Below the pieces are notes generated by a model, which was not told the DNA's origin, did no database searches, and was given only the letters and a program-made list of their open reading frames with translations. This document shows, one piece after another, positions 1 through 19,360 of a DNA stretch of 26,873 bases. Source of the DNA: Breznakia sp. PF5-3 (GTDB lineage: Bacteria > Bacillota_I > Bacilli_A > Erysipelotrichales > Erysipelotrichaceae). Location: the NCBI RefSeq assembly GCF_029504745.1, contig NZ_JAQFIQ010000032.1, positions 1 to 26,873 on the forward strand. The letters are read 5' to 3'. The number at the start of each line of letters is the position of its first letter. The first letter of the stretch is position 1. Made by a program: the position numbers and the translations under genes.

Positions 1-176
1 CCCTTATCCATTCTTGACTCGCCTTATGTGATTCGTATTCCTCGGGTCGGTAGTTTGCACTCCAACTTCCTTCAGATTCCACCTCGCGATGGACACCCTT
101 GTCTTCGGCTACGGGTTAGCGACTACACCCCCCACAGTGGACTTTCACCACTAGATATATGCCATGCCTAGCACAC
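1..176 (-). mobile_element. Group II intron (class C-like), 5' 176 nt of a second copy; the rest lies beyond the window edge
   Basis: 1..182 is identical by eye to 14416..14597. On the minus strand it begins GTGTGCTAGGCATGG at 176 and carries GGAATCTGAAGGAAG (rc of 66..80). It starts 1 nt after the U-tract of the MATE gene terminator. Confidence 0.8.
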
Positions 177-177
177 C

Positions 178-207
178 AAAAAAAGTAAAATCAAAGATTT
201 TACTTTT
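178..207 (-). terminator. Intrinsic terminator of the MATE gene
   Basis: Minus strand AAAAGTAAAATC-TTT-GATTTTACTTTT (12-bp stem) followed by TTTTTTTG. It overlaps the stop codon at 200..202. Confidence 0.8.
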
Positions 208-1558
208 CGGTTTCCAAAATAGCTATTTCACTATGATATATTTTATAAAATAAATAAATACACAAGCCTAAAGATACCACTTCCGCAATCGGAAAAGCGA
301 ACCACACCATATGCACATTTTGGGTTTGTGCAAGTAAATATGCAGCTGGTAATAATACGACAAGTTGTCGTATTACTGAACTAAATAAACTCAACATTCC
401 ATGTCCCAAAGCTTGAAAGGTTGTAGATAAGACAATACTCACAGCCGCAAGAACAAAATGAACACTAATGATTCTAAGCCCAATTACACCAATTTTAAGC
501 ATCTCTTTTGATGGTGAGAAAAAGCCTAGTAATACATCTGGGAACAATTGAAATAACAATACTCCCAAACTCATAATAACAACTGCATAGATACAACCCA
601 ACCGAATTGTCTGGGTAATGCGTTGTTGATTTCTAGCTCCATAGTTATATGAAACAATAGGGATAATTCCATTATTCAAGCCAAAGATAGGCATAAAGAT
701 AAACCCTTGTAACTTAATATAAACACCACCAAAAAAAGCAGCTGCACTTTTGGTAAAAGACATCAAGATCTGATTCATACCAAAGGACATAATGGATCCA
801 ATTGAAACCATGATAATCGATGGAAAACCAATCCCATAAATTTTACGAATTATATGTAAATCAGGTTTATACTTTCTTAAATTAAAATCTACATCATGAT
901 TAAACTTCAAATTAAAAAACAATGCTAGAATAGCAGCAATAATCTGTCCTGTGATTGTCGCAATCGCTGCTCCTTCAATTCCCATAGCTGGAATAAATCC
1001 ATAACCAAAGATAAACAATGGATCTAGAATAATATTAATAATAGCACCTAAGCCTTGTGTACACATTGTATACAGTGTTCTTCCCGTTGCCTGCAATAAT
1101 CTTTCAAAGGCAATTTCTAAAAAGATCCCAAAACCAAAAATCGTACATATTTGTAAATACTTTGTTCCTAATTTGGCTATTTCGCTACTTGTATTTTGAA
1201 TAGAAAAATAGTATTCACTACCAAGCAATCCAAAAACTAAAAACAACAAGGAACTGATAAACATAATAAGAACCCCACTACTAGCTACACGATTCGCTTT
1301 ATCAAATGACTTTCTCCCTAGATACCTAGATAGTAAAGCATTGATTCCAACCCCTGTACCAGTAGCGATGGCAATCATCAAATTTTGAATTGGATATGCC
1401 AAAGACACCGCTGTTAATGCATCTTCACTAATCTGTGCCACAAACGCACTATCCACAATATTGTAAAGTGCCTGAATCAACATCGAGACCATCATTGGTA
1501 ATGACATAGTAATTAATAAACGGTTAATTGGCATCGTACCCATTTTATTTTCTTGCAT
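200..1558 (-). CDS. MATE family multidrug/toxin efflux transporter
   Basis: 452-aa polytopic membrane ORF. The N-terminus PINRLLITMSLPMMVSMLIQALYNIVDSAFV is typical of MATE (NorM/DinF-like) proteins. GGGGGAA Shine-Dalgarno lies 5 nt upstream of the ATG at 1558. Confidence 0.9.
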   Translation of the reverse strand: MQENKMGTMPINRLLITMSLPMMVSMLIQALYNIVDSAFVAQISEDALTAVSLAYPIQNLMIAIATGTGVGINALLSRYLGRKSFDKANRVASSGVLIMFISSLLFLVFGLLGSEYYFSIQNTSSEIAKLGTKYLQICTIFGFGIFLEIAFERLLQATGRTLYTMCTQGLGAIINIILDPLFIFGYGFIPAMGIEGAAIATITGQIIAAILALFFNLKFNHDVDFNLRKYKPDLHIIRKIYGIGFPSIIMVSIGSIMSFGMNQILMSFTKSAAAFFGGVYIKLQGFIFMPIFGLNNGIIPIVSYNYGARNQQRITQTIRLGCIYAVVIMSLGVLLFQLFPDVLLGFFSPSKEMLKIGVIGLRIISVHFVLAAVSIVLSTTFQALGHGMLSLFSSVIRQLVVLLPAAYLLAQTQNVHMVWFAFPIAEVVSLGLCIYLFYKIYHSEIAILETEK

Positions 1559-1626
1559 ATATTCCCCCTATTAAACTACGTTATTATACCAAACACCACT
1601 GTGATGTAAACCCTTTTTTCATTTAT

Positions 1627-2802
1627 CTATTTAATCAATAACGTTTTATAGGTGCGATCAATGAGAAACGCTCCAATCGGAGCTGTTAATAGAATCGAGA
1701 GTATCGATACTGCTAAGACAACTTCACCACAAGCCAATCCCATACTAAGGGGCAAAGCACCAATCGCTGCTTGGACTGTTGCTTTTGGTGCATAGGCAAT
1801 CATGGTAAACAAGCGCTCATTTTTCTTTAATGGTGTTTTCACAAGACAAAGCATTACGCCAACCATTCTAAACATCAAGCCAAAGGCTAAAACAAGAATA
1901 ACTGCAAACCCAATAATTTCAAGATAAGAAATATCAATCTTCGTTCCTACCAAAACAAAAAGCAATATTTCTGCACCACTCCAAAGACGGCTATAACGTA
2001 CTTCTAAACGGTTTGCTAATGATGGATAATACTGATGCATTGCCAATCCCATCGCCATAATTGCTAATAACGAAGACATTGGAACATACATTTGAATTAC
2101 TTCTTGTACTTCCAACAAAATAAAGGAAATACTAAGCATTATAAGTACTTTCCATGAATCACGAAGATGGAAACATTTACATAACTTCACCAAAAGATAT
2201 CCAACTATTAATCCAGTGATGATCCCAACAACAATAGAAATTGGTACTCTTACAAAATCCAAAACATCCATACTACCACTCTTCAACAAAGATGTGAATG
2301 CCGTAAACATTACAATTACAAATACATCATCCACCGATGCTCCAGCCATAATCATCTGAGGAATACCTTGTTTTACCCCATATCCTTCTTTCATAAGCTT
2401 CAACATCCGTGGCACAATAACAGCAGGTGAAACAGCTGCCAATACTGCACCTAGCACTGCCGATTCTAAAATACTAAGTCCCAACAAGGTTGGACCAATG
2501 ATGATAACTCCTAAGATTTCAAAACAAGCAGGAACAAAACACATCAAAAGCGCTGGTCTTCCAACTTTTTTTAATTCCTTGATATCTAATGATAATCCTG
2601 CTCTCGTTAAAATCACAACCAAGGCAAACTGACGTAATTCATCTGAAATCTTTAAAACCTGTCCATCGATGATATCTAAAACATAGGGACCTAATATAAC
2701 TCCTGCGATCATCATTCCAACTAGTCCTGGTAGTTTTAATTTTTGAAAAATAGAACTTAATAACATACCAAATAAAAATATCCATGCGAAACTTATAAAC
2801 AT
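1627..2802 (-). CDS. Cation:proton antiporter (Na+/H+ exchanger family, CPA-type)
   Basis: 391-aa ORF with ~11-12 hydrophobic segments. The N-terminus KLKLPGLVGMMIAGVILGPYVL is characteristic of the sodium/hydrogen exchanger family. GGAGG lies 6 nt upstream of the ATG. Confidence 0.85.
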   Translation of the reverse strand: MFISFAWIFLFGMLLSSIFQKLKLPGLVGMMIAGVILGPYVLDIIDGQVLKISDELRQFALVVILTRAGLSLDIKELKKVGRPALLMCFVPACFEILGVIIIGPTLLGLSILESAVLGAVLAAVSPAVIVPRMLKLMKEGYGVKQGIPQMIMAGASVDDVFVIVMFTAFTSLLKSGSMDVLDFVRVPISIVVGIITGLIVGYLLVKLCKCFHLRDSWKVLIMLSISFILLEVQEVIQMYVPMSSLLAIMAMGLAMHQYYPSLANRLEVRYSRLWSGAEILLFVLVGTKIDISYLEIIGFAVILVLAFGLMFRMVGVMLCLVKTPLKKNERLFTMIAYAPKATVQAAIGALPLSMGLACGEVVLAVSILSILLTAPIGAFLIDRTYKTLLIK

Positions 2803-2813
2803 ATTGTACCTCC

Positions 2814-2864
2814 AATAAAAAAAGCTAATGTCCTACACTAAAAAGTATAGAAATCATCAGCTTT
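2814..2864 (-). terminator. Long intrinsic terminator hairpin directly abutting the antiporter RBS (adhesin terminator and/or leader attenuator)
   Basis: Minus strand AAAGCTGATG...CTATACT-TTT-AGTGTAG...CATTAGCTTT gives ~19 paired positions with a small internal loop. It is followed by TTTTTTTATT and then GGAGG. Confidence 0.65.
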
Positions 2865-2909
2865 CGCGGTTTAGATAAATATCTAGGGAGATTTCATTCC
2901 CTGTTATTT

Positions 2910-2938
2910 AGTATACACCTTTTTTATTTTTTGTCCAA
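2910..2938 (-). promoter_or_regulatory. Candidate sigma-A promoter for the antiporter leader
   Basis: Minus strand TTGGAC (2938..2933), 17-nt spacer, TATACT (2915..2910). The -35 element overlaps the last codons of the adhesin gene. Confidence 0.4.
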
Positions 2939-5900
2939 TGGTTTCCGCTTATAAACAAGAAACCCTAATGAGCCAACAACCAATCCTACCCAAAGCATAT
3001 AATTTGTATAATCCCCTGTAGCAATACTATTGGCAATATTTGAAATCATACTACCTGCTTTATCTGGTTTTTTATTTACATCATTTTTCACAAGCTTATC
3101 GTTTGTTACTGTATAACTCAACTTAAATGTTTTAATATCTTTGATTGATAGTTCATATGTCTTATCACTTTTCTTATAATCTTTTGGTGCTTTTACTTCT
3201 TTAAGTTCATAATCACCAGCTTTGATTTTTTCATACGTGATTTCTCCATCTTCATCACTCACTTGATTATCCCCAACAGCAGTACCATTTTTTGAAAGCA
3301 TAAACTCTGCCCCTTGCAAGCGTTTATTATCTTTCTCATCTTCTTTGATAATTGTTAAATCATAATAAGGTTGTAACCCTAGATTTTGATCAGATACACT
3401 TACATTCGCTGCAATTGAAATCTTATCACTTAATATCGTATCTTCATGGAAGATGGATACATCATTATTAGCAATACCTCGTGTTGTTGAAACAAACTTA
3501 GGCGCACATTTTAAATATTCTTCATATTCTTCATTGATGCTTATTTGAACATAGTATTCACCAGGATCAACCTCTGTAAAGATAAATCCTCCATCACTTT
3601 CAATATCAGCTTCATCAATAACTGTATGTGTATTATCCAATAATTCTACTTTTAAGATTTGAATATCATTATCATCTACATTATCACTGAATACTTGATC
3701 ACCTGCATTAGCATTGTATACACTATCATAATCTAAATCATAGAAGATAGAACCTGAAATTGTTTGGTTTGATTGATACATACCAAGATCATTATTCATA
3801 TCGTTTACACCACTTTTAAATTCCAACACACCACTTTCCCATACACCTTCATCTTCATTGAGGGTGAATATGTTACCATCTGGTGAAGTCCCTTTTGGTG
3901 ACACAAAATATCCTGTCTTTGGTGTTGCAACCATCTTATATTTTCCAGGTTTTATTTGATACATTGCATATCTTCCACTTGTATTTGTTGACGCTGTATA
4001 TTTCTCAGTCGTTTCTTTTTCATCATTATCAAGACGAATAAGTGTCATTTCATAATTACTAATGCCTTTTTCATTCGCATCGTATTGACCATTGGCATTT
4101 TCATCATTCCATACAAGATCTCCAATATTCAATATACGGTAGAATCCAGCATCAACATTGATACGTTTTTCACCTTCAGCAATTACAACATCTGCTGCTG
4201 CTTTTTCTTTTGTATCATCCCAATCAACAAAATCATTGTTTACATCATCACTACCAACATTTGGTTTAGACAAATAATATTGAGGACCCATAAATTCTAA
4301 TTCCACTGTATATTTTCCAGGGAATAAACCTGTAAATTCATAATGCCCATCCATACCAGTTATCGTTTCAGCGACAATATCACCTTTCGCATCAAGTAGT
4401 TTTACTGGTACATTCTTAAACAATGGTTCATCTACATCTTTCATGTCATTTCCATTTGTATCTTCCCAAGCTACTCCTGATATTTGTGCATTTGCTTCAT
4501 ATGTCGATGAATAAATTCCTGACTTATATGGTTCTCCAGGAATAATATACGTTCCTGTATCTAACTTTCCACCATATGCAACACTATTCCATGCCACTTT
4601 TACTTTATTCGTTGGTTTTGGCATTTTCATTTTCACGATAAATTCAATAGATTCACTTTGATCTAAGTTTTTAATATCTATACGCAAAGCATTAGCATCA
4701 CGATAACTAGCATCATTAGCACTACCATTAAAGTTTACCCATGTATTATAATCGGTTGTAAAATCAGTTAGATCATCTGCATTTTTATCATATACAGCAT
4801 CTTCACTAAATGCATATTCAACACTGGCTCCACTACTTGTAGTATAAGAGAGTGATAAAAATTCAGGTACTAGAGTAGAATTCTTTGGTGTATCTGTTAC
4901 AACTAAAGAATCTGATAATTCTGGTAACATATCAATGATTCTTAATTGGGCAAATTTTGAACTACTATTATTCTTAACACTAATTTTATAATATACTTCT
5001 TGGTTTGTAAGACTATTCCAATCTGCTTCTGTTAGATTAATATTATTTGCGTAGTCAACACCATTTAACGATGCTTCTTTACTCACTTCAAGATCTACAT
5101 GCTGTAAGAAGTTTACTGTTTGATATCTACTACCATGAGAATCAACAGGCACTGTCCCTACTGTTTCTATATTAGTTGGATATGTTGTATGTACATATTT
5201 TTGATTTTCATTTTCAGAAGCAAAATATGCATAATAAGTTGCACTAGTTCCACTTTTTGCTACTGCTGTAATACGTACCGCATATTGATTGTTGTAGTAA
5301 CTTCTAGGAATATCGCGATTATAATGCACAATAACAAGTGTTCTTCCACCCGAAATCGATCTCGTTTCAAACGTTGCATCTGGTGCATTGTTTGGATTTA
5401 CCAATTCTACTTTTTTAAAATCAACATTAGATGGTAAGATGAAATATCCAGCTCCTGAAAGTAAATCTCCACTTCCATCTACATTATTCATATTGATTGT
5501 ATATGTGAATGTATCGCCGATTGCTGGATTTCTTGGACTATACATAGAATCCCAATCATTTGATAGTAGTGGATTCGATAATCCCAACCCTGCTCCACGT
5601 TCAATATAAGTTGTCGTAAATGTACGAACATTTTTATCATCTTCTTCTTTTATATCTGTAAAACTTGTAGCCCCAACATCCTTTTGTTTTCCATAAATAC
5701 GCAATGTGTTGGTAAGACCATCATTTAACCCTTCGGTTTTATTTTGAATTCCTAATAATGTATCAGCTTCCATTGTAATTACTACTTTTCCTGCTTCAAT
5801 AGGAATCTCACTTGAACCATTATAATTAAAATCATATTTTACTTTGGTTACATATTCATCTGCTTCTAAATTTAAATCACTGATATTTATTTGACCACTT

Positions 5901-7135
5901 GCTGTATATTGTGAACTTACGGCTTTCCAACTTGTGTGTTTATTGGTTTGGTAAGATACTTTGGTTTTCACAACTTCTTTTAAAGAAGGATTTACACTTG
6001 TTTTAGCGTTCCAACTTATTTTAGCGAATCTTAAAGCATCAAAATATTCACTTTCATTTGCTAATGGATCATCTACTAAATAAACATCTTTCAGATCAGC
6101 TTCTGGACGTAATTCTAACTCATAAATCACTTTTTGTCCTGATTCACGAATAACCGTTGAAGATCCTTCTTTTCTAAAGAATACAGTTCCATCAGAAGCC
6201 GTTCCAGACCCTAATGGATATACAATATCTTTTACTTCTCCCTTTTCCACTACTGGTGTTCCTACACCATCTCTTACTCCTGTATACGTAACTTTAATAA
6301 TTCTTTCATCTTCTGCTTCTACAAAATCATATTTATAATTCAATACGATTGTCTGTACTGTTCCAATGGTTTGAAGTACACCAATTGGTACTTCAATATA
6401 TTTTCCATTACTATCATTTTGAATTGGATAATTTGTCCCATTATACATTGCACTGTATAAAATAATATCCTCAGGTAAATCTATTCGCACACTTGCATTT
6501 ACATGATCCAATCCTCCAACTCGTAATTCTGGTGTTAAATCAATCGTTGCAGTATGTACAACATGTGCCCATTTATCTTCTTTTCTAAGCGATAAAATTG
6601 GTGTTTGTTGTTCTTTTACTTCCAACGTTACACTAGAACTAAGTGGCTGATTTACATTCGCATTATTTGCACTTACTTTTAATACAGGTGTAAACGTACG
6701 TAATGCAACATCCGTTGGATATTTACCTGCTTTATACGCCATTTCAAAATCCATTAAAAATAGCTTCGCTACCCGAATATCTGCATTCCCACTAATCGTT
6801 ATTGTTTGCCCTGTTTGGGTAATCGTAAACGCACTACTGGTTGGCATTTTTTTAATTTCTACACTCTCTGGAATATCAAATGATAGATTCAAATTTTGAA
6901 TTCCATTTTGATTTTCTAACTCTTCACTAATAGCTACACTATTAATCTGTAATTGTAAAACAAATGTCTCTCCAGGTTGTACAATCGTTTTATCAAATTT
7001 TACTTGTGTATCAACATTTGCAATCTTTTCCGTTCTTGTTTGACCTTCTTGCGAGAAAGCTGGTGTGACCATCTGTGCAATCACGATAAACAAACTTGCA
7101 AGAAATACATAAATTCTTTTTTTATTCTTTTTCAT
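2924..7135 (-). CDS. Large cell-wall-anchored surface adhesin with SdrD-B-like and Cna-B-like repeats
   Basis: Signal peptide KKRIYVFLASLFIVIAQMVTPAFSQ. Three tandem SdrD B-type modules (e.g. GVAWEDTNGNDMKD...GHYEFTGLFPGKYTVELEF). A Cna-B/SpaA-type domain (LQGAEFMLSKNG...GEITYEKIKAGDYELKEVKAPKDYK). The C-terminus has SIATGD, a hydrophobic stretch and KRKPLDKK. The ORF opens at a TTG at 7141, but GAGGAG is better spaced for the ATG at 7135. Confidence 0.85.
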   Translation of the reverse strand: MKKNKKRIYVFLASLFIVIAQMVTPAFSQEGQTRTEKIANVDTQVKFDKTIVQPGETFVLQLQINSVAISEELENQNGIQNLNLSFDIPESVEIKKMPTSSAFTITQTGQTITISGNADIRVAKLFLMDFEMAYKAGKYPTDVALRTFTPVLKVSANNANVNQPLSSSVTLEVKEQQTPILSLRKEDKWAHVVHTATIDLTPELRVGGLDHVNASVRIDLPEDIILYSAMYNGTNYPIQNDSNGKYIEVPIGVLQTIGTVQTIVLNYKYDFVEAEDERIIKVTYTGVRDGVGTPVVEKGEVKDIVYPLGSGTASDGTVFFRKEGSSTVIRESGQKVIYELELRPEADLKDVYLVDDPLANESEYFDALRFAKISWNAKTSVNPSLKEVVKTKVSYQTNKHTSWKAVSSQYTASGQINISDLNLEADEYVTKVKYDFNYNGSSEIPIEAGKVVITMEADTLLGIQNKTEGLNDGLTNTLRIYGKQKDVGATSFTDIKEEDDKNVRTFTTTYIERGAGLGLSNPLLSNDWDSMYSPRNPAIGDTFTYTINMNNVDGSGDLLSGAGYFILPSNVDFKKVELVNPNNAPDATFETRSISGGRTLVIVHYNRDIPRSYYNNQYAVRITAVAKSGTSATYYAYFASENENQKYVHTTYPTNIETVGTVPVDSHGSRYQTVNFLQHVDLEVSKEASLNGVDYANNINLTEADWNSLTNQEVYYKISVKNNSSSKFAQLRIIDMLPELSDSLVVTDTPKNSTLVPEFLSLSYTTSSGASVEYAFSEDAVYDKNADDLTDFTTDYNTWVNFNGSANDASYRDANALRIDIKNLDQSESIEFIVKMKMPKPTNKVKVAWNSVAYGGKLDTGTYIIPGEPYKSGIYSSTYEANAQISGVAWEDTNGNDMKDVDEPLFKNVPVKLLDAKGDIVAETITGMDGHYEFTGLFPGKYTVELEFMGPQYYLSKPNVGSDDVNNDFVDWDDTKEKAAADVVIAEGEKRINVDAGFYRILNIGDLVWNDENANGQYDANEKGISNYEMTLIRLDNDEKETTEKYTASTNTSGRYAMYQIKPGKYKMVATPKTGYFVSPKGTSPDGNIFTLNEDEGVWESGVLEFKSGVNDMNNDLGMYQSNQTISGSIFYDLDYDSVYNANAGDQVFSDNVDDNDIQILKVELLDNTHTVIDEADIESDGGFIFTEVDPGEYYVQISINEEYEEYLKCAPKFVSTTRGIANNDVSIFHEDTILSDKISIAANVSVSDQNLGLQPYYDLTIIKEDEKDNKRLQGAEFMLSKNGTAVGDNQVSDEDGEITYEKIKAGDYELKEVKAPKDYKKSDKTYELSIKDIKTFKLSYTVTNDKLVKNDVNKKPDKAGSMISNIANSIATGDYTNYMLWVGLVVGSLGFLVYKRKPLDKK

Positions 7136-7195
7136 ATTCAACGCTCCTCAACGTTTAGACAGAAATTTTTGGCAATTCGTTCATTTATTTTTTAA

Positions 7196-7212
7196 GTTCG
7201 ACAATGTCGAAC
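7196..7212. promoter_or_regulatory. Perfect 7-3-7 palindrome upstream of the adhesin gene (candidate operator)
   Basis: GTTCGAC-AAT-GTCGAAC lies ~60 nt upstream of the adhesin start. There is no adjacent U-tract, so it is not a terminator. Confidence 0.3.
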
Positions 7213-7232
7213 ATTTTATCTATTATTTCATC

Positions 7233-7256
7233 AAGAAAAAAGAGCATACGCTCTTT
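7233..7256 (-). terminator. Intrinsic terminator after miaA
   Basis: Minus strand AAAGAGC-GTAT-GCTCTTT followed by TTTCTT. It overlaps the miaA stop codon. Confidence 0.75.
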
Positions 7257-8157
7257 AGTTTAACCATGTTTCAATATCATTTTCCAACTTCTTTTTAAAG
7301 TCACTTGTAATATCATACCAGTGAACTGGCAGTTGATTATGAAACCATGTATATTGTCGTTTCGCAAAATTACGAGTATGCTTTTGAATCAGTGCTACGG
7401 TATCTTCAAAAGAAACTTCCTTTTTATAATACCCTAACCATTCTTTATAACCGATTCCCTGCATACTTTGTAAATTGAAATCTGCTTCTGAAGTAATGAG
7501 ATTCATAACTTCTTGCTCTAATCCTTGATCCATCATCTTTAACACTCGCTCATTGATTCGCTCATAGAGGAGTGGTCGATCCATTGTTAGACCAACAATC
7601 CAAGCGTCATAGAGTAAAGTGTGTTCTTGCTTTGCAATTACATCACTTTTCTTATGCCCTAGATGATTCATCATTAAAGCTCGTTTTACTCGCTTACGAT
7701 TATTTGGATGTAAATCCTTAGCAGCATCTTCATCAACCTCACATAACTTCTCATATAAGGTATCATTGCTTAATTGCTCTAACGCTTTATCATAATCTTC
7801 ATCGATTTCTTCATCATGAAATATATAATCATATAATAAGGATTTAATGTACAATCCTGTTCCACCACAAATGATTGGTAGCTTTCCTTTTGCCAATATT
7901 TCATCGATACAAACTCTTGCCTTTTCTTGAAATATCTTCACATTATACTCTTCTTTATATGAAATCATATCAACTAAATAATGTTTAATCCCCTGCATTT
8001 CTTCAGGTAGTATCTTAGCACTACCAATGGTAAGTTCTTTATAACATTGATATGCATCTCCACTGATAATTTCACCATTATACCGCTTTGCCAAATCAAT
8101 GCTTAATCCCGTTTTTCCAACTCCAGTTGGACCTACTATAACAAGTACTTTTTTCAT
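7255..8157 (-). CDS. miaA: tRNA dimethylallyltransferase
   Basis: P-loop VIVGPTGVGKTGLSIDLA followed by EIISGDAYQCYKELTIGSAK, which is the canonical MiaA signature. The start overlaps the mutL stop (TAATG). Confidence 0.95.
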   Translation of the reverse strand: MKKVLVIVGPTGVGKTGLSIDLAKRYNGEIISGDAYQCYKELTIGSAKILPEEMQGIKHYLVDMISYKEEYNVKIFQEKARVCIDEILAKGKLPIICGGTGLYIKSLLYDYIFHDEEIDEDYDKALEQLSNDTLYEKLCEVDEDAAKDLHPNNRKRVKRALMMNHLGHKKSDVIAKQEHTLLYDAWIVGLTMDRPLLYERINERVLKMMDQGLEQEVMNLITSEADFNLQSMQGIGYKEWLGYYKKEVSFEDTVALIQKHTRNFAKRQYTWFHNQLPVHWYDITSDFKKKLENDIETWLN

Positions 8158-9998
8158 TACTTAACTCTTAAAAAATCCTTTTCTAATTCTTTTAGTGTCA
8201 ATTCAATCAATGTAGGTCGTCCATGAGGACAGTGGAATGGTTGTTCACATTTCCTTAAATCTTCAAGAACTTGTTTCATCTCTTCCATATTTAATGTGCG
8301 ATTAAAACGAATAGAAGAATGACATGCCATAGAAGCAAGTGCATGTTTACGAAGTTGTTCAATATTAATCTCTTCATTTTTTAAATATAAATCAATCATA
8401 TCTTGAATAAACTTTTCTTCTTCTACATCACTTACCCAAATCGGCAATGAGCGAACTACAAACGCATTGTCACCAAATACTTCTAGATGAATACCAATTT
8501 GATTCAATAAAGCATTCATATCATCTACTTGTTGAACCGCTTGCATAGTTGATTCAATTGTTAAAGGAACTAATAAATCTTGTTTATCTTTTACACCTCG
8601 TAATAAAGCTTTTTGAATTTGTTCATAATGATAACGTTCTTGAGCAGCATGTTGATCAATGATATATAGACCTTCATCACCTTGGGCTAGAATATAACAC
8701 TTATGTAATTGTGCAAGAACAAACATATTTGGAAAAGAAGGATTGATTGCTTCTTCTACAATCTCTTCTACTGTTTCTAGCACTTCTTCTACTTCCACTT
8801 CTGCTGGTTTCACTTCTTCTTTTATTGTTTCAATTACTTCATTACTTACTTCTTCAACCGGATCTACATCCGTTTTAACATATGGTCGAAAGCTTTCATT
8901 TACTTCCTTATGAAGTTTTTGTGGAGTAATCGTATCACTTTGTTGGTATTGAAAATCAAAGCTTGGTGTATCTACCTTTTCAAAACGTTCTTGACGAACT
9001 ACTTTATTTACTTCAAGTTTTTCACGCAATGCTTCACCTAACGATTCTTTAATTAAATATTCCAACTGTTTTTCTTTTGATAAACGAATCTCCCATTTAC
9101 TTGGATGTACATTTACATCAACCAATTGAGGATCCATTTGAATATTTAAAACGGCGATAGGATAACGATCATTTGGAATATATGGCGCATATGCATCTGT
9201 AATCGCTTTTTGTAAGCGATAAGAGCGAATCATTCGATTGTTCACAAACAACAACATATAGTACTTTGTCGCCCTTGTATGTGAAGGTTGTACAATATAC
9301 CCATGTAACTTATAATCTTGATCATCAGCATTTACTTCAATGGCAGCTTTGGCAATATCACGTCCATAAATATTCATTATCACTTCTTGCGTATTTCCAT
9401 TTCCACTACTCATAAACGATCTTTTTTCATCATTCATTAAAGTAAAAGAAATATTTGGATATGCCAATGCAAATTTTTGCACAACATCACTGATTAATGA
9501 ATATTCATATTGTGCTGTTTTTAAATGCTTAAACCGTGCTGGTGTTCTTTGAAATAAATTTTTCACAATGATTTGAGTTCCTTTAGGAGTACCTATTGGT
9601 CCTGCTTTCACTAGCTTTCCATAATCAATTTCCACAAGTGTCGCTTCCTCACCATTGTTTGTCTTCAACTCTACATGAGCAACTGATGCAATAGAAGGTA
9701 GTGCTTCACCACGAAATCCCATTGTTGAAATCTTCCAAAGATCTTGAACATCTTTAATCTTACTTGTTGCATGACGTTCAAAAGCAAGCGTTGCATCAGC
9801 AGCACTCATCCCATCACCATTGTCAATAACCATCATCTGCTCAATACCACCTTGCTTTGTTTGAATCTCAATCACTGTTGCGTTCGCATCGATTGCATTT
9901 TCCACAAGCTCTTTGATAACACCAACGGGTCTTTCAACTACTTCACCAGCCGCAATCATATTGGTTAAATGGGGATCTAAGCGCTGAATTTTACTCAT
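8157..9998 (-). CDS. mutL: DNA mismatch repair protein MutL (endonuclease-type)
   Basis: N-terminal GHKL motif IAAGEVVERPVGVIKELVENAIDA. C-terminal DQHAAQERYHYEQ endonuclease motif and CPHGRP. Confidence 0.95.
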   Translation of the reverse strand: MSKIQRLDPHLTNMIAAGEVVERPVGVIKELVENAIDANATVIEIQTKQGGIEQMMVIDNGDGMSAADATLAFERHATSKIKDVQDLWKISTMGFRGEALPSIASVAHVELKTNNGEEATLVEIDYGKLVKAGPIGTPKGTQIIVKNLFQRTPARFKHLKTAQYEYSLISDVVQKFALAYPNISFTLMNDEKRSFMSSGNGNTQEVIMNIYGRDIAKAAIEVNADDQDYKLHGYIVQPSHTRATKYYMLLFVNNRMIRSYRLQKAITDAYAPYIPNDRYPIAVLNIQMDPQLVDVNVHPSKWEIRLSKEKQLEYLIKESLGEALREKLEVNKVVRQERFEKVDTPSFDFQYQQSDTITPQKLHKEVNESFRPYVKTDVDPVEEVSNEVIETIKEEVKPAEVEVEEVLETVEEIVEEAINPSFPNMFVLAQLHKCYILAQGDEGLYIIDQHAAQERYHYEQIQKALLRGVKDKQDLLVPLTIESTMQAVQQVDDMNALLNQIGIHLEVFGDNAFVVRSLPIWVSDVEEEKFIQDMIDLYLKNEEINIEQLRKHALASMACHSSIRFNRTLNMEEMKQVLEDLRKCEQPFHCPHGRPTLIELTLKELEKDFLRVK

Positions 9999-10014
9999 AA
10001 TAACACCTCATTTC

Positions 10015-12531
10015 TTATTGTTTCTTCAATTCATTTAAAAAATTCAATGCCTCTAAAGGCGTCATTTGATCAACATTAGCTTGATCTAATAAATTTACAA
10101 TTGCTTTCGCATGCGTATCTTCTTTTTGAATATTCTCACGCATCTCCACATGTAAATCAACTTCTTCTTTTTGCACATTCGCAAGAATTTGCTGTGCTCT
10201 ATCCAATACTGCTGAAGGTAGTTTTGCTAAACGGGCAACATTCACTCCATAAGATTTATCAGCTCTTCCTTCTTTAATCTTATAAAGGAAGATGACTTCA
10301 TCATCTACTTCTTCAACATCTACTGTTAAATTCTTAATTCCGCTATATTTATCTTCCAATGCTGTTAACTCATGATAATGTGTAGAAAACAACGTCTTTG
10401 CTTTGGTATGTTCATGGATATATTCCAACATTGCATATGCCAATGACATTCCATCATATGTTGATGTTCCTCGACCAATCTCATCAAATAAAATTAAGGA
10501 ATTATCCGTAGCGTTCTGTAATGCATAATTTGCTTCCATCATTTCCACCATAAAGGTTGAATGACCACTCATAATATCATCACTAGCTCCAATTCTTGTG
10601 AAGATTTTATCGAAAATTGGTAACTCACATGTCTGAGCAGGAACAAAACATCCAATTTGTGCCATGATGACGGTCAATGCTACCTGTCGCATATATGTCG
10701 ATTTACCACCCATATTCGGTCCTGTAATAATCATGATTTGATCTTCTTCTCGCATTTCTAAATCATTCGCTACATACCTTTTTTCTTTCATTGTCTTATC
10801 TAAGATAGGATGACGATTTTCCACTAGTTTCACCTCATGTGCTTTGGTAAAGACAGGACGTATATAACCATTTTCACTTGCTACAACACTCATTGCATAC
10901 AACGCATCAATGCAAGAAATAGCCTTTGCTAACTCATGCAATTTAGGTAAGTAGATACGAATCATTTCTAATAATTGCTGATATAATTCATTCTCTAAAC
11001 GAACTGCCTTTTCCTCAGAGTGTAAAATCATATCTTCTTTTTCTTTTAACTCAGCCGTAATAAAACGCTCTGCATTCGCCAACGTTTGCTTTCGCTCATA
11101 TCCAAATTCATCTTTAATCTTATTTAAATTTCCACTACGTACTTCAATATAATATCCAAAGATTCGATTATATCCTATCTTCAAAGATGTTACACCTGTA
11201 CGTTCTCGCTCTTTTGCTTCAAGATCTAAAATAAACTTTTTCCCAGAATTCTTAATTGTTCGATATTCATCCAATTCTTTATGATATCCATCAACAAAAA
11301 CTCCACCATCTTTAACATTTACAGGTGGTTCTTCCACAAGAATTCCATCTAACTTTTCAAACAAATCATGACATACATCCACAGTTGCAAACTCTTTATA
11401 TGCTCCACAGTCTTTAAAAATATCCATGACCATCGGTGCATAACGCAGAGTAGAAATAAGCCTTAAAATATCTCTAGGATTTGCATTTCCATAAGCTATT
11501 TTAGCACTTAAGCGTTCCATATCATAAATGTTTGTTAAACATTCTTTTAACTCATCTTTCAATAAAAAGTTAAAGTTTAAAAATTCAATTGCATCCAATC
11601 GTTGATTAATCTTAGCTTCATTAATTAATGGATACGTTATCCATTTCTTTAACGTTCTACTTCCCATACTTGTTTTCGTATGATCCATAAAACTCCACAA
11701 CGTTTGAGACTTTGAATTCGTTCTTACGGGTTGAATCAATTCTAAATTTAATTTTGTAGAGTAATCCATCTGTAAGAACAATTCATCTTGAATAAGTTCT
11801 ACCCTTCCTAGATGCGACATATGACGTTTTTGTGTATTATCTAAATAATTACTTAAAATAGCAAATCCTGTTTTTATATGCTCATCATCAATACCTTCAA
11901 TTAAATCAAAATATTCTTTCTTCAATACAATATTATTTTCATTTGATATTGTAATCGCACCCAAATTTTCAATCATCTTGATTGCCTTCTTATCAAAAAA
12001 TTCCTGTACTACCACTTCACGTACATTCATCGATAACAATGTTTTTTGGAGGGATTGCAAGCTACGATCAATCGTTTTAGCACTCACCTCACCACAAGTC
12101 ATTTCACAAAAGGTAACAGCAAACCCATACTTAAAATCATAAACCGATGCAATATACGCATTATCCATTGCATCATTGGCTTCTTCCATGATTGTTCCAG
12201 GCGTTACGATCTTCACCACATCACGCTTTACTATCTTTCCAGCACTAGCATCTTCCATCTGTTCAACAATCGCAACCTTATACCCTTTTTGTGTCAGTCT
12301 TTGAATATAACCTGTTGCAGCATGGTATGGAATTCCACACATCGGAATCCGCTCTTCCACCCCAGCATTCCTACCAGTAAGAACCAAATCCAATTCATTT
12401 GACGCCGTCTTTGCATCATCAAAAAACATCTCATAAAAATCCCCTAAGCGATAAAAAACAATACAATCCTGTAAGTTTTTCTTCACCTCTAAATATTGCT
12501 GCATCATCGGTGTATATTTCTTTTCTGACAT
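10015..12531 (-). CDS. mutS: DNA mismatch repair protein MutS
   Basis: TPMMQQYLEVK N-terminus and Walker A ITGPNMGGKSTYMRQ. The ORF is open to 12558, but AAGGAG precedes the ATG at 12531, and a TGnTATAAT box at 12559..12567 sits immediately upstream of the 12558 ATG. I therefore call the shorter start. Confidence 0.95.
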   Translation of the reverse strand: MSEKKYTPMMQQYLEVKKNLQDCIVFYRLGDFYEMFFDDAKTASNELDLVLTGRNAGVEERIPMCGIPYHAATGYIQRLTQKGYKVAIVEQMEDASAGKIVKRDVVKIVTPGTIMEEANDAMDNAYIASVYDFKYGFAVTFCEMTCGEVSAKTIDRSLQSLQKTLLSMNVREVVVQEFFDKKAIKMIENLGAITISNENNIVLKKEYFDLIEGIDDEHIKTGFAILSNYLDNTQKRHMSHLGRVELIQDELFLQMDYSTKLNLELIQPVRTNSKSQTLWSFMDHTKTSMGSRTLKKWITYPLINEAKINQRLDAIEFLNFNFLLKDELKECLTNIYDMERLSAKIAYGNANPRDILRLISTLRYAPMVMDIFKDCGAYKEFATVDVCHDLFEKLDGILVEEPPVNVKDGGVFVDGYHKELDEYRTIKNSGKKFILDLEAKERERTGVTSLKIGYNRIFGYYIEVRSGNLNKIKDEFGYERKQTLANAERFITAELKEKEDMILHSEEKAVRLENELYQQLLEMIRIYLPKLHELAKAISCIDALYAMSVVASENGYIRPVFTKAHEVKLVENRHPILDKTMKEKRYVANDLEMREEDQIMIITGPNMGGKSTYMRQVALTVIMAQIGCFVPAQTCELPIFDKIFTRIGASDDIMSGHSTFMVEMMEANYALQNATDNSLILFDEIGRGTSTYDGMSLAYAMLEYIHEHTKAKTLFSTHYHELTALEDKYSGIKNLTVDVEEVDDEVIFLYKIKEGRADKSYGVNVARLAKLPSAVLDRAQQILANVQKEEVDLHVEMRENIQKEDTHAKAIVNLLDQANVDQMTPLEALNFLNELKKQ

Positions 12532-12558
12532 AACTTCTCCTTCTTCTATAACTATCAT

Positions 12559-12567
12559 ATTATACCA
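12559..12567 (-). promoter_or_regulatory. Extended -10 promoter (TGGTATAAT) for mutS-mutL-miaA
   Basis: Minus strand TGGTATAAT lies ~28 nt upstream of the preferred mutS ATG. No convincing -35 element. Confidence 0.5.
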
Positions 12568-12589
12568 TAAATATTGCTATCCCTCTGGC

Positions 12590-12616
12590 ACAAAAAGAAA
12601 AAGAGTATTACTCTTT
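12590..12616 (-). terminator. Weak terminator-like hairpin at the end of the 130-aa lipoprotein gene
   Basis: Minus strand AAAGAG-TAATA-CTCTTT then TTCTTTTT. The stem is short and AT-rich and overlaps the stop codon. Confidence 0.4.
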
Positions 12617-13000
12617 TCCTTGATAATTATTAATTAAATCCCAAAGCTTTTCAGCCGCTTTTTCATCTACTGTACTTTTCATATCATCATCATTTTTTGA
12701 ACTCTCATAACCAATCGTTCCATCTTGATAAATAAAGTACGTATCCATTTCTCCATCTCTTTGAATATAAATAGCAACAAAATCCGTAGTTGTTTCTTCA
12801 AAGTCATCTTTAAACTCTAAGCCATCCAAATCTTCAACAAACTTTTCATAATCATTTTCATCTACTGGAATCGATTCCATCGATCCACTATCATCTACGG
12901 CTCGATTAATTGCCATACCTTCAATATCATCCACATTCACACTACTAGAACCACATCCAACTAAACCAATAAACAATAATCCTATTATTAGCTTTTTCAT
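12608..13000 (-). CDS. Small acidic lipoprotein, function unknown
   Basis: Lipobox LLFIGLVGCGSS and AAGGAG RBS. I recognise no family. Confidence 0.75.
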   Translation of the reverse strand: MKKLIIGLLFIGLVGCGSSSVNVDDIEGMAINRAVDDSGSMESIPVDENDYEKFVEDLDGLEFKDDFEETTTDFVAIYIQRDGEMDTYFIYQDGTIGYESSKNDDDMKSTVDEKAAEKLWDLINNYQGKE

Positions 13001-13080
13001 AAGTTCTCCTTCCTTGGTATTTTTCTAAATTGTATCATACCATTTTATATAATAGAAAGAATTGCTATGAATAAACATAT

Positions 13081-13119
13081 TAAAAACCTCATAAGTTTAA
13101 TTTTTTCCTTATGAGGTTT
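13081..13119 (-). terminator. Intrinsic terminator after the 262-aa lipoprotein gene
   Basis: Minus strand AACCTCATAAG-12 nt-CTTATGAGGTT (11-bp stem) followed by TTTTTAAT. Confidence 0.8.
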
Positions 13120-13132
13120 CTTTACTTCAATA

Positions 13133-13921
13133 TTAATTATTCATATCTTTGAAATCTTTAAAGTCTGGGAAATCAATATCTTTATTCTTAAAGCTATCAT
13201 ACTTAATGTTAGCTGCCATTGATACTTCTCCCTTTTCTCCAAGATATTCCATTGTTACTTTAAATGTAATATCTTGTTCTTTAATATAACCATCTTTATT
13301 GATTACATACTTAATTTTATAATTTTTGATATCCATATTCTCTTCATCAAATGAACTACTTCCCATCGTATCTTCCATTTGTTCCATTACCAATTCTTTA
13401 ATTTCATCATCTTTTAATTCAATTGTAACAATTTTATCATCACCATCTTTTTTCATTTTAATACTATCAATTTGTTCTTCCACTAATAGTGCAAGATTTG
13501 TTTGCTCTTGCAATGAATCTAATTCTGTAAATTCTGAATCATCCATCTTCACTTTATATCCTGACATTTCCATATATACATTTCCATCTTTAATATAAAC
13601 GGTTGCCTTTTGATTTGTCTTTGACATTGTCATGTCCAATTCCATCATACCTTCTAATTTATCCATATCACCTAAATTATTAAAGATAAAATCATAATTC
13701 ATTGTAATCTCTTCACTCTCATCATCAACTTCAGCTTTCATTTCAAGTTCCATTGTTCCAGCATTTGAATCTGCTTCATTTGTTTTCTTCATTGCTGTCT
13801 CTAATTCTTTAATCATGTCTTTTTTGCTTACTTTTTCTCCATCTCCTGAAGAACCAGAACACCCTACCATTCCAACTAAGCAAATAACTGCTAATGCCAA
13901 ACTCATTATTCTCTTTTTCAT
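13133..13921 (-). CDS. Acidic lipoprotein, function unknown (possibly a LolA/LppX-like fold)
   Basis: Lipobox LVGMVGCSGSS and AGGAGG RBS. The mature part is highly D/E/K-rich with a beta-rich pattern. The fold assignment is only an impression. Confidence 0.8.
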   Translation of the reverse strand: MKKRIMSLALAVICLVGMVGCSGSSGDGEKVSKKDMIKELETAMKKTNEADSNAGTMELEMKAEVDDESEEITMNYDFIFNNLGDMDKLEGMMELDMTMSKTNQKATVYIKDGNVYMEMSGYKVKMDDSEFTELDSLQEQTNLALLVEEQIDSIKMKKDGDDKIVTIELKDDEIKELVMEQMEDTMGSSSFDEENMDIKNYKIKYVINKDGYIKEQDITFKVTMEYLGEKGEVSMAANIKYDSFKNKDIDFPDFKDFKDMNN

Positions 13922-13992
13922 AATCTCCTCCTATTGGTTTTTATACCTTTTCTTTCAAGACATCTTTCTTTTTTTACGTCTTTCACCAATAA

Positions 13993-14019
13993 CACACGAT
14001 TCAATTACAAAAAGTTTCA
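13993..14019 (-). promoter_or_regulatory. Candidate ECF-type promoter upstream of the 262-aa lipoprotein gene
   Basis: Minus strand TGAAACTTTTT...(15-nt spacer)...CGTGTG. It shares the 11-mer TGAAACTTTTT with the candidate promoter of the ECF sigma gene at 18476..18504. Confidence 0.3.
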
Positions 14020-14076
14020 ACAAGTTTTATTTTTTTAATAATTTTAATTAATCAAGTTTTTTATAAATAATGCCTA

Positions 14077-14591
14077 ATCGAGTAGGAGGTAACTGATTAA
14101 TTCAGTTACCGACCTCTCACACCACCGTACGCTCTCAACTTACACGGTTAATTTTACACTCCCAAAGTTAAATTAGAAAGTGTCTACGTTTAAGTTGTCC
14201 ACTTTCTTGACATAGTACCACTTTGCTCATTGCGCATTACCGCAACTTCTTAACTACTACGACGCTTGCTGACTTCTCACTATTCGTTGTTACTACGATA
14301 TTTCTATCGCTAGTGAGACCTCCTAGGGTAAGGTCATATATCTTTCTTACCATGTACCCGCCACATTTACATTTCAAGCACTCTTTAGCCTATTGGAACT
14401 TCGGATCGTTTGGCACCCTTATCCATTCTTGACTCGCCTTATGTGATTCGTATTCCTCGGGTCGGTAGTTTGCACTCCAACTTCCTTCAGATTCCACCTC
14501 GCGATGGACACCCTTGTCTTCGGCTACGGGTTAGCGACTACACCCCCCACAGTGGACTTTCACCACTAGATATATGCCATGCCTAGCACAC
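14077..14591 (-). mobile_element. ORF-less group II intron, class C-like ribozyme (~515 nt; 3' boundary +/-15 nt)
   Basis: This is a GC-richer block with no long minus-strand ORF. The minus strand starts GTGTGCTAGGCATGG. It then has GGTGAAAGTCC, CAAGGGTGTCCATCGCGAGGTGGAATCTGAAGGAAG, GAGGAATACGAA, AATGGATAAG, CTTACCCTAGGAGGTCT, GAAGTCAGCA and CGTACGGTGGTGTG. These are in the same order as in my recollection of the O. iheyensis group IIC intron. A domain VI-like hairpin (14088..14110) and ...CCTACTCGAT lie at the 3' end. The 5' end lies 1 nt after a terminator U-tract. Confidence 0.8.
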
Positions 14592-14592
14592 C

Positions 14593-14626
14593 AAAAACAG
14601 GCAATATTTAAGAAAATATTGCCTGT
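14593..14626 (-). terminator. Intrinsic terminator of the ECF/transglutaminase operon; intron target site
   Basis: Minus strand ACAGGCAATATTT-TCTT-AAATATTGCCTGT (13-bp stem) followed by TTTTTG and then the intron GTGTG. Confidence 0.85.
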
Positions 14627-14629
14627 ATC

Positions 14630-14722
14630 TTATTTTCCCTTCTTCCTAACCTTCTTCACAATCACAATTCCAAGTGTTAATCCCAATGCACCACCAATTA
14701 TACTTGCTACTTTTATATTCAT
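14630..14722 (-). CDS. 30-aa single-pass membrane micropeptide (not in the ORF track)
   Basis: MNIKVASIIGGALGLTLGIVIVKKVRKKGK. The ATG overlaps the lipoprotein stop (TAATG). The ORF exactly fills the gap between that stop and the terminator. It has a hydrophobic core and a basic tail. Confidence 0.5.
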   Translation of the reverse strand: MNIKVASIIGGALGLTLGIVIVKKVRKKGK

Positions 14723-17178: not shown

Positions 17179-17234
17179 TTTCTCCTCCGTATGCCCTCTT
17201 TTATTTTGACACTAGTTCTCTTTAAAACGTTCCC

Positions 17235-17948
17235 TTATTTCACAAATTTCACTAAAAATGTAATGAAATCCTCTTGTGTCATATTCTCTGTCTTAATCGA
17301 ATACAATTTACCTTCATCAATATATTTGGCAACAAACTCTTCATTTACTTTATTATAACGAAGTGCTAATTCTTGCTTATCGATTGTAGAGTTTGTATTT
17401 AATGTACCCTCATCTTCCTTTTCATAGGTTACATAAATACGTTCATCGCCTTTCGTGTATTCATTCACTACTTTCACATTTGTAAGTTGCTCACCATCAT
17501 ATAAACATTCAATTTTGGTTTGAGAATTTGTAAAACCTTTTGGTACCTCAATCGTAATGATTTCCCCATAAAATTCTTTCACATCCGCATCACTACCAGC
17601 TTTTGTTATATAGCTTTTTAAATCACTAGATAAATCGTTATCACTAATTGAATGCGTTGCAAAGTTCAATTCTCCATTTTCAAGTTTGACCTTATCTACC
17701 ATTTTTCCTGCCTGTAATTCGGTTTTAATCAATTCACCCGATGATCCACCTTGGCTTAAGATTCCAATGGCTAAAATCACTGCCGCCATTCCTCCAAGTA
17801 ATGAAAAAATAACTGGGCGTCTGAAAAATCCAACTTTTTTCTTTTCTGCTTGTTTTTCTTGTTCCTCTTTCATCAAGAGCGACGTTTCTGTAATCAGCTC
17901 TTTGGGAACTTCGATTTCATCATATGCTTCTTTGTACTTATCAAGCAT
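17235..17948 (-). CDS. Putative membrane anti-sigma factor
   Basis: 8-nt overlap with the upstream ECF sigma gene. It has a short cytoplasmic N-terminus, one TM helix (VIFSLLGGMAAVILAIGIL) and an extracytoplasmic domain of ~170 aa. The call is by context and topology only. Confidence 0.6.
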   Translation of the reverse strand: MLDKYKEAYDEIEVPKELITETSLLMKEEQEKQAEKKKVGFFRRPVIFSLLGGMAAVILAIGILSQGGSSGELIKTELQAGKMVDKVKLENGELNFATHSISDNDLSSDLKSYITKAGSDADVKEFYGEIITIEVPKGFTNSQTKIECLYDGEQLTNVKVVNEYTKGDERIYVTYEKEDEGTLNTNSTIDKQELALRYNKVNEEFVAKYIDEGKLYSIKTENMTQEDFITFLVKFVK

Positions 17949-18414: not shown

Positions 18415-18475
18415 TCCTTTTCCCTCAACTTGTTATCTATTATTTATATGTGGCTCTTTGTATCCCTTCGTAATT

Positions 18476-18504
18476 CATACGAATGAATGAAAGAAAAAGT
18501 TTCA
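18476..18504 (-). promoter_or_regulatory. Candidate autoregulated ECF promoter (SigW-like TGAAAC-N17-CGTATG)
   Basis: Minus strand TGAAAC (18504..18499), 17-nt spacer, CGTATG (18481..18476). It lies ~60 nt upstream of the sigma gene and just after the divIC-like terminator. Confidence 0.5.
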
Positions 18505-18505
18505 T

Positions 18506-18531
18506 AATAAAAAAGAAGTTTTTTAACTTCC
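18506..18531 (-). terminator. Intrinsic terminator after the divIC-like gene
   Basis: Minus strand GAAGTT-AAAA-AACTTC followed by TTTTTTATT. Confidence 0.7.
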
Positions 18532-18534
18532 CTT

Positions 18535-19351: not shown

Positions 19352-19360
19352 ATCTTCTCC

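What the first reader, a model, noticed from the sequence alone, without database searches (positions are those of the whole stretch)
1..207. Second, sequence-identical intron copy, also inserted right behind an intrinsic terminator
Positions 1..182 match 14416..14597 with no mismatch that I can find. That covers 176 nt of intron 5' end, plus G, plus five T of the upstream U-tract on the minus strand. The flanking hairpins are unrelated: the MATE terminator here and the ECF-operon terminator at 14593..14626. Insertion immediately downstream of rho-independent terminators is the published hallmark of class C introns. Perfect identity between the copies implies very recent retromobility. The copy at the window edge could be the RT-encoding master or another mini copy. 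The window does not show which.
Basis: seen in the sequence. Interest (0 to 1): 0.65.

Follow-up and report, generated by a model that had tools for sequence, protein, structure and literature searches.

The report
Second group IIC intron copy, polymorphic insertion
The first 176 bases of this contig are the start of a real second copy of a terminator-seeking bacterial group II (class C) intron that inserted recently behind an efflux-pump gene; this is textbook behaviour, and the only twist is that the complete copy elsewhere in the window is a broken, gene-less relic.

Summary
Observation confirmed: window 1-182 equals 14416-14597 exactly, which is 176 nt of intron 5' end plus the shared exon tail TTTTTG.

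Both copies lie on the minus strand and hit Rfam RF02001. Each sits 5-8 nt after an unrelated terminator hairpin.

The insertion is real and recent. A Breznakia strain 99.7% identical in the flanks has the empty site (…TTTTTTTG|TATCATTG…). An independent assembly shows the matching 3' junction (…CTCGAT|TATCATTG), with no target duplication.

Both 5' exons end in UUUG, which pairs with the intron's EBS1 (CAAA). This pairing covaries across 10 related introns, all of them behind terminators. That pattern defines group IIC.

The window is a whole contig. Three assemblies of the same strain all break inside this copy, so whether it carries a reverse transcriptase cannot be read. Contig-end positions hint that it differs from the other copy in domain IV.

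New point: the complete copy (14591..14077, 515 nt) has no ORF and a degenerate 26-nt domain V. The CGC triad and the 2-nt bulge are lost, whereas nine relatives keep a covarying 30-nt domain V. It is probably a dead relic, not the donor.

No maturase of this lineage was found. This is a known kind of element and of modest interest.

The parts
1..176 (-). First 176 nt (domain I, 5' part) of the MATE-site group IIC intron copy, cut off by the contig end. G1 of GUGUG is at 176. The epsilon' bulge with AGGAA is at 71..67. The copy stops 4 nt before EBS1.
   Evidence: Identical to 14416-14591. RF02001 hit 93-1, 57.6 bits, truncated 3'. The same junction appears in assembly JAQFIO contig 55 (L011).
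177..184 (-). 5' exon tail TTTTTTTG. IBS1 = UUUG (180..177), which is the U-tract of the MATE terminator plus G.
   Evidence: The empty site in L002/L009 reads TTTTTTTG|TATCATTG. IBS1 pairs with EBS1 CAAA.
180..208 (-). Intrinsic-terminator hairpin of the MATE gene. The core is GTAAAATC-TTT-GATTTTAC at 203..185, and it overlaps the TAA stop.
   Evidence: Fold -10.5 kcal/mol, z -4.15. The same stem is present in the empty-site strains.
200..1558 (-). MATE efflux transporter gene, the 5' exon context of the insertion.
   Evidence: Pfam MatE 6.6e-44. 450/452 identical to Breznakia sp. OttesenSCG-928-G09.
14077..14591 (-). Complete ORF-less copy, 515 nt (GTGTGC...CCTACTCGAT). Domains I-III are recognisable and domain IV is about 65 nt with no ORF. 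Domain V is degenerate (14147..14122). Domain VI has a bulged A at 14083. EBS1 CAAA is at 14412..14409.
   Evidence: RF02001 118.9 bits. The weak RF00029 hit ends exactly at 14077. The 3' boundary is fixed by L008 and by relatives ending CTACTCGAT. Domain V comparison.
14592..14626 (-). 5' exon of the ECF-side copy: a 13-bp terminator hairpin (14626..14597), then TTTTG with IBS1 UUUG (14595..14592).
   Evidence: Terminator scan. Fold -17.7 kcal/mol, z -7.25.
14630..14722 (-). 30-aa hydrophobic ORF, the last gene before the ECF-side terminator.
   Evidence: Called as a gene in L004/L012/L024.

Best explanation
Window 1-176 is the 5' end of a genuine, independently inserted copy of a bacterial group IIC (class C) intron in a Breznakia sp. 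(Erysipelotrichia) chromosome.

[quoted passage not shown] It pairs its 4-nt EBS1 (CAAA) with the last four exon bases (UUUG) and EBS3 with the first 3'-exon base (U). It then reverse-splices into the DNA strand a few bases after the hairpin and is copied into DNA without a target duplication.

The insertion behind the MATE gene is recent, because close strains still have the empty site. The copy is cut off because assemblers cannot cross the repeat.

The complete copy at 14591..14077 is a 515-nt derivative that has lost the ORF and has a destroyed domain V. It is most likely a catalytically dead, immobile relic of the same intron lineage, not the source. An intact RT-encoding copy is therefore predicted elsewhere in the genome. 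That copy may be the MATE-site copy itself.
For: Shown:
- Exact 182-nt repeat with unrelated flanks.
- RF02001 hits on both copies.
- Empty site in L002 (GCA_030266565.1) and L009, with 99.67% identical flanking DNA.
- 3' junction CTCGAT|TATCATTG in Logan contig L008, so the insertion is precise and has no target duplication.
- The same 5' junction in JAQFIO.
- Logan unitigs end exactly k-1 = 30 nt into the shared sequence on both sides, so those samples hold at least 2 copies.
- EBS1 (the 4 nt after GC in the ID loop) pairs with the last 3-4 exon nt in all 10 introns compared, across 7 different sequences.
- All nine relatives sit after a hairpin plus T-run.
- Relatives' IEPs have RVT_1 and GIIM and no endonuclease domain.
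- 11-nt bulge with AGGAA, as the literature gives for IIC (PMC1702495).
- Domain V: the nine relatives fold as 9 bp + 2-nt bulge + 3 bp + tetraloop, with a CGC triad, at -13 to -17 kcal/mol and with 4 compensatory pairs. The mini is 26 nt, has lost one triad nucleotide and the bulge, and folds at -3.7 kcal/mol.

Inferred: the mobility mechanism, and that the mini is dead.
Against: - No RT/maturase of this lineage was found anywhere: none in the window, none among the top 120 relatives of the L. salivarius RT, and none by exact k-mer scans.
- If the mini is an old relic, 100% identity over 176 nt with a recently inserted copy is unexpected, unless the deletion was recent and abrupt or the copies are homogenised by gene conversion.
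- That the mini's ribozyme is dead is predicted from sequence only.
- No empty ECF-side site was found, so the age of that insertion is unknown.
Confidence: 0.85

Rival explanations
1. The MATE-site copy is a second copy of the same 515-nt ORF-less element. On this view the mini is a non-autonomous element still mobilised in trans by a maturase/RT encoded elsewhere, and its odd domain V works or is complemented.
For: - Perfect identity of nt 1-176 and of the last 28 nt (L008) with the mini.
- No RT gene was found for this lineage.
- ORF-less bacterial introns mobilised in trans are documented for Thermosynechococcus IIB1 introns (PMC8643678, PMC4424553).
- An ORF-less IIC relative exists in Persicobacter.
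Against: - Reverse splicing needs the element's own catalytic core. The mini's domain V lacks the CGC triad register and the 2-nt bulge that all nine relatives conserve with covariation.
- In JAQFIO the contig entering the mini from its 3' side runs 239 nt, but flank-side contigs stop after about 93-95 shared nt. This fits a partner copy that differs from the mini from about nt 370-377 (start of domain IV), not an identical mini.
- Two identical 523-nt repeats would not be crossed at one site only, as happens in two assemblies.
Confidence: 0.25
2. Positions 1-176 are an assembly artefact: a contig-end chimera or mis-join of reads from the 14.5-kb copy onto the MATE flank.
For: The sequence lies at a contig end and is identical to an internal repeat.
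Against: - The same MATE-terminator/intron junction occurs in a separately assembled genome (L011).
- The reciprocal 3' junction (intron end fused to the ispF upstream region at exactly the empty-site position) is in an independent Logan assembly (L008).
- IBS1 matches EBS1.
Confidence: 0.03
3. The repeat is part of a larger segmental duplication or recombination product, not an independent retro-insertion.
For: Only 182 nt of the copy are visible.
Against: - Identity stops 6 nt upstream of the intron's first base, and the flanks are unrelated.
- The empty site differs from the filled site by exactly the intron.
- Downstream synteny (ispF, gltX...) is preserved in L008 and L002.
Confidence: 0.02

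Closest known systems
Bacterial group IIC (class C) introns, e.g. B.h.I1 of Bacillus halodurans, O.i.I1, GBSi1 (PMC1702495; PMC4424553)
   Same: - Insertion 5-8 nt after intrinsic-terminator hairpins, in the sense orientation.
- 4-bp IBS1-EBS1 pairing, and U as the first 3'-exon base.
- 11-nt epsilon' bulge with AGGAA.
- Small ribozyme.
- Relatives carry a CGC-triad, short-distal-stem domain V and En-less IEPs.
- No target duplication.
   Different: - No IEP can be seen for either copy.
- The only complete copy has a degenerate domain V.
- No sequence closer than about 72% identity in domains I-III was found in plasmid or phage records, and exact k-mer scans of GTDB representative genomes and JGI metagenomes found nothing.
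Full-length IIC intron on Ligilactobacillus salivarius plasmid NZ_CP114507.1 (L014 2512-4417, ltrA 452 aa)
   Same: The last 55 nt (3' half of domain V, J5/6, domain VI, 3' end) are 54/55 identical. It has the same architecture and also sits behind a terminator.
   Different: Nt 1-276 are only 72% identical. It encodes an RT and has a canonical 30-nt domain V. EBS1 is CGCA rather than CAAA.
ORF-less bacterial group II introns dependent on a related IEP in trans (Thermosynechococcus elongatus, Trichodesmium dnaN introns; PMC4424553, PMC8643678, PMC12584367); ORF-less IIC in Persicobacter pPP7 (L017)
   Same: Loss of the domain IV ORF, and co-residence with at least one related copy in the same genome.
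   Different: Those elements keep an intact catalytic core and are spliced or mobilised. This one has lost canonical domain V, so it looks like a decaying copy rather than a working non-autonomous element.

Membership tests
Group II intron (ribozyme) | Conserved domain I-IV core detectable by covariance model; 5' GUGYG and 3' AY ends | tested here: met
   RF02001 scores 118.9 bits (full model) and 57.6 bits (truncated). The 5' end is GUGUG and the 3' end is ...CGAU. Boundaries were fixed by filled/empty site comparison.
Group II intron (ribozyme) | Canonical domain V (catalytic triad, 2-nt bulge) and domain VI with a bulged branch A | tested here: inconclusive
   Domain VI with a bulged A at -7 is present. 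Domain V of the complete copy is degenerate: 26 nt, -3.7 kcal/mol, triad register and bulge lost, whereas the nine relatives have 30 nt with covariation. Domain V of the copy in question (1-176) lies beyond the contig end.
Group IIC / class C | Located just downstream of an intrinsic terminator stem-loop (or attC), sense orientation | tested here: met
   Both copies: hairpin, then T-run, then the intron 5-8 nt after the stem. The same holds in all nine relatives.
Group IIC / class C | IBS1-EBS1 of only 3-4 bp | tested here: met
   EBS1 CAAA pairs with UUUG at both sites. This 4-nt pairing covaries across 10 introns with 7 different sequences.
Group IIC / class C | No EBS2/IBS2 pairing | not tested
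   I looked for no EBS2 motif, so its absence is assumed by analogy with IIC introns (PMC1702495), not shown.
Group IIC / class C | 11-nt epsilon' bulge with conserved AGGAA (PMC1702495) | tested here: met
   UCUGAAGGAAG is aligned to the unpaired 11-nt stretch of RF02001 in both copies.
Group IIC / class C | Domain V with a CGC triad and a distal stem 2 bp shorter | tested here: not met
   Met by all nine relatives, but not by the complete Breznakia copy (CCGU-G, no bulge). Read as decay of this copy, not as exclusion of the lineage. It cannot be tested for the 1-176 copy.
Group IIC / class C | IEP of the class C clade, lacking the En domain | not testable with these tools
   No ORF is present in the window copies, and no Breznakia IEP was retrieved. 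The IEP of one relative (P. acidaminophilum) was scanned and has RVT_1 and GIIM only. Other relatives are annotated ltrA, 427-460 aa, but were not scanned.
Active retroelement | Insertion polymorphism with precise junctions and no target-site duplication | tested here: met
   The site is empty in L002 and L009. It is filled in the window, L011 and L008, with junctions exact to the base.

The most novel reading that the evidence does not exclude
The MATE-site insertion is another copy of the 515-nt ORF-less element with the 26-nt non-canonical domain V. In that case a group IIC derivative lacking both its protein and a recognisable catalytic hairpin has retrotransposed recently. That would imply either a functional, radically reduced domain V or complementation of the catalytic core in trans in vivo.
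Probability: 0.1. Interest if true: 0.7.

Novelty: new member of a known kind. Interest (0 to 1): 0.27.

Why it matters
It gives a clean natural case of a IIC intron caught mid-spread in a cockroach-gut Erysipelotrichia lineage. Filled and empty sites are seen among near-clonal strains, with base-exact junctions and an EBS1/IBS1 match.

It also shows an ORF-less copy in which the catalytic domain V has collapsed. This illustrates how such elements decay in place behind terminators.

Practically, it explains why all assemblies of this strain break at this point. None of this changes what is known about group IIC introns.

Tried and rejected
- **Extending the contig leftwards.** This is impossible. 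The window equals a whole contig. JAQFIR010000034.1 equals window 90..26873 and JAQFIO010000055.1 equals window 90..14315, and both stop at intron nt 87.
- **Exact-protein look-ups of the MATE and Na/H exchanger genes.** These returned 'not on record', although identical DNA exists in L011.
- **Look-up of the spurious 38-aa ORF inside the intron, to list all assembled copies.** It found only the ECF-site copy.
- **Exact k-mer scans.** Four intron k-mers (nt 24-67, 38-68, 104-131, 471-506) gave no match in GTDB representative genomes or JGI metagenomes.
- **Searching for the lineage's RT.** I queried with the L. salivarius IEP. The top 120 hits, down to 63% identity, are Lactobacillaceae-type or unnamed, and none is named Breznakia.
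- **An empty ECF-side site.** None was found. Every contig carrying the 30-aa ORF or the sigma factor is filled or breaks in the intron. The G09 contig ends before the site.
- **The low RF00029 score as evidence of decay.** Rejected, because a full-length relative (P. acidaminophilum) gets no RF00029 hit at all.
- **Locating the ORF deletion.** Global alignment of the mini to the L. salivarius intron was too noisy. The 90-nt domain IV/V 'filler' (nt 371-460) matches nothing.
- **Contig-end arithmetic (87/89/176/277).** I treat this as a hint only.

Full report
**1. Observation**

Window 1-182 is identical to 14416-14597. The repeat finder extends the match to 185 nt at 99%, and direct reading places the first mismatch at 183.

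- On the minus strand both stretches read ...TTTTTG|GTGTGCTAGGCATGG...
- Rfam RF02001 (group-II-D1D4-3) hits 14508-14333 at 118.9 bits over the full model. It hits 93-1 at 57.6 bits, truncated by the window edge.
- The hairpins upstream of the two copies are unrelated and both are far more stable than shuffles. The MATE hairpin (180-208) gives -10.5 kcal/mol, z -4.2. The ECF-side hairpin (14597-14626) gives -17.7 kcal/mol, z -7.3.

**2. Where the window comes from**

- The MATE protein is the representative of a cluster whose longest contig is 26873 nt, which is the window length. Position 1 is therefore a contig end.
- The nearest named relatives are Breznakia species (Erysipelotrichia), and the cluster-mate comes from Breznakia sp. 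OttesenSCG-928-G09.
- Two NCBI assemblies are 100% identical to the window over their whole overlap. JAQFIR010000034.1 equals window 90..26873. JAQFIO010000055.1 equals window 90..14315.
- So three assemblies of one strain all stop inside this intron copy, at intron nt 87, 87 and 176.

**3. It is a real, independent and recent insertion**

- In strain G09 (L002; flanking DNA 99.67% identical; MATE 450/452 aa), the MATE stop and hairpin are followed by TTTTTTTG|TATCATTG. ispF starts 91 nt after the MATE stop. This is an empty site. A second empty site is in Logan contig L009.
- Logan contig L008 starts with the last 28 nt of the intron, fused to the same 3' exon...CCTCCTACTCGAT|TATCATTGTCACC.
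- Filled and empty sites therefore differ by exactly the intron (GTGTG...CTCGAT), with no target duplication.
- The same 5' junction is present in JAQFIO.
- Logan unitigs (k = 31) stop exactly 30 nt into the sequence shared by the two sites, on both the 5' and the 3' side. This is what at least two copies in those samples would produce.
- These results exclude an assembly chimera and a segmental duplication.

**4. Class**

The 3' boundary makes the complete copy 14591..14077, or 515 nt. I compared it with ten distant relatives from plasmid records, 69-73% identical in domains I-III.

- Every relative whose 5' junction was read sits after a hairpin plus T-run.
- The IEP of the one relative I scanned has RVT_1 and GIIM only. 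Most of the others carry an annotated ltrA of 427-460 aa.
- The four nucleotides after GC in the ID hairpin loop pair with the last 3-4 exon nucleotides in all ten introns compared. The EBS1 sequences are CAAA, CGCA, AAUA, UAAA, UGCA, UAGA, UUAA and CAUA, each with its own matching exon.
- In the Breznakia intron, EBS1 CAAA pairs with UUUG at both sites, and both 3' exons start with U.
- Together with the 11-nt AGGAA bulge, these are the features the literature gives for IIC introns. Those features are a terminator stem-loop in place of IBS2, a 3-4 bp IBS1-EBS1, EBS3 as in IIB, a CGC triad and a shortened distal stem of domain V (PMC1702495; PMC4424553; PMC8643678).

**5. The complete copy is defective**

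- It has no ORF. Domain IV is about 65 nt.
- Nine relatives share a 30-nt domain V, CCGCC-NNN-U-ACS-GNNC-SGU-NN-G-NNN-GGUGG. It folds as 9 bp + 2-nt bulge + 3 bp + tetraloop at -13 to -17 kcal/mol. Four of its pairs show compensatory changes, and 93.7% of cells are paired, against 25-48% when the partners are slid.
- The Breznakia copy reads CCGU-GUAAGUUGAGAGC|GUACGGUGG. It is 26 nt long, one triad nucleotide is missing, there is no bulge, and it folds at -3.7 kcal/mol. The 5' strand changed without compensation in the 3' strand.
- From nt 461 to the end it is 54/55 identical to a Ligilactobacillus salivarius intron.
- J2/3 also departs at positions that are invariant in seven relatives: GCAGAnGYCAUAGUA becomes GCAAGCGUCGUAGUA.
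- I infer a catalytically dead relic. This is a prediction from sequence.
- The weak RF00029 score is not evidence of decay, because a full-length relative gets no RF00029 hit at all.

**6. What the edge copy is**

This cannot be read. There is one hint. In JAQFIO, the contigs that enter the repeat from unique flanks stop after 93-95 shared nt. The contig that enters the mini from its 3' side runs 239 nt, to nt 277. If the same overlap rule applies, the mini becomes unique at about nt 370-377, the domain III/IV boundary. That is what a partner copy with a different domain IV, for example one holding an ORF, would produce.

I give about 60-65% to an intact or full-length copy at the MATE site and about 25% to a second mini. 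No IEP of this lineage was found, and exact k-mer scans of public collections were empty.

**7. Verdict**

It is an ordinary though well-documented instance of IIC intron behaviour. The additional result is that the neighbouring 'mini' copy is a decayed derivative.

- Novelty: new member of a known kind.
- Interest: about 0.27.
- The only reading that would raise interest is that the domain-V-defective mini itself transposed. I put that at about 10%.

Noticed in passing
window 2841-2910 (-): Fluoride riboswitch (RF01734, 43.4 bits, E 4e-9) directly upstream of the Na_H_Exchanger-family gene at 1627-2802.
   Followed up: no
window 193-195; L002 8643-8645; L009 about 228-230; L011 about 14120-14122: The 3-nt loop of the MATE terminator hairpin is TTT in the intron-bearing strain and AAA in both empty-site strains, while the palindromic stem is unchanged. 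This looks like a hairpin-loop inversion (template switch) that co-occurs with intron presence.
   Followed up: partly
window 14122-14147 (-) and 14256-14273 (-): The complete mini intron has a degenerate 26-nt domain V (CGC triad register and 2-nt bulge lost). It also has substitutions at J2/3 positions that are invariant in seven relatives.
   Followed up: yes
window 14077-14131 (-) vs L014 4363-4417: The last 55 nt of the intron are 54/55 identical to a Ligilactobacillus salivarius plasmid IIC intron, although nt 1-276 are only 72% identical. This could be a mosaic or a strongly conserved 3' end.
   Followed up: partly
L017 2510-3159 (Persicobacter psychrovividus plasmid pPP7): A roughly 650-nt ORF-less IIC intron behind a terminator, with the same EBS1 (CAAA) and IBS1 (UUUG) and an intact canonical domain V. 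A second Persicobacter plasmid also hits (H3).
   Followed up: partly
L013 2686 (JAQFIO010000059.1), intron nt 55: G instead of T, 34 nt from the contig end, in an otherwise 100% identical genome. It may be a real SNP in the ECF-side copy, a read-through from a third copy, or a contig-end error.
   Followed up: no
window 14630-14722 (-): A 30-aa hydrophobic/basic ORF (MNIKVASIIGGALGLTLGIVIVKKVRKKGK) that overlaps the stop of the transglutaminase-like gene. It is called as a gene in several assemblies and is the true last gene before the ECF-side terminator.
   Followed up: partly
whole window: All sizeable genes and both intron copies are on the minus strand. GC skew of the plus strand is -0.22 to -0.36, so the introns lie in the G-rich (leading-strand) sequence, co-oriented with replication.
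   Followed up: no
window 26873 (right end): The right contig end is shared exactly by a second assembly (JAQFIR010000034.1), which suggests another unresolved repeat just beyond the PTS EIIC gene.
   Followed up: no
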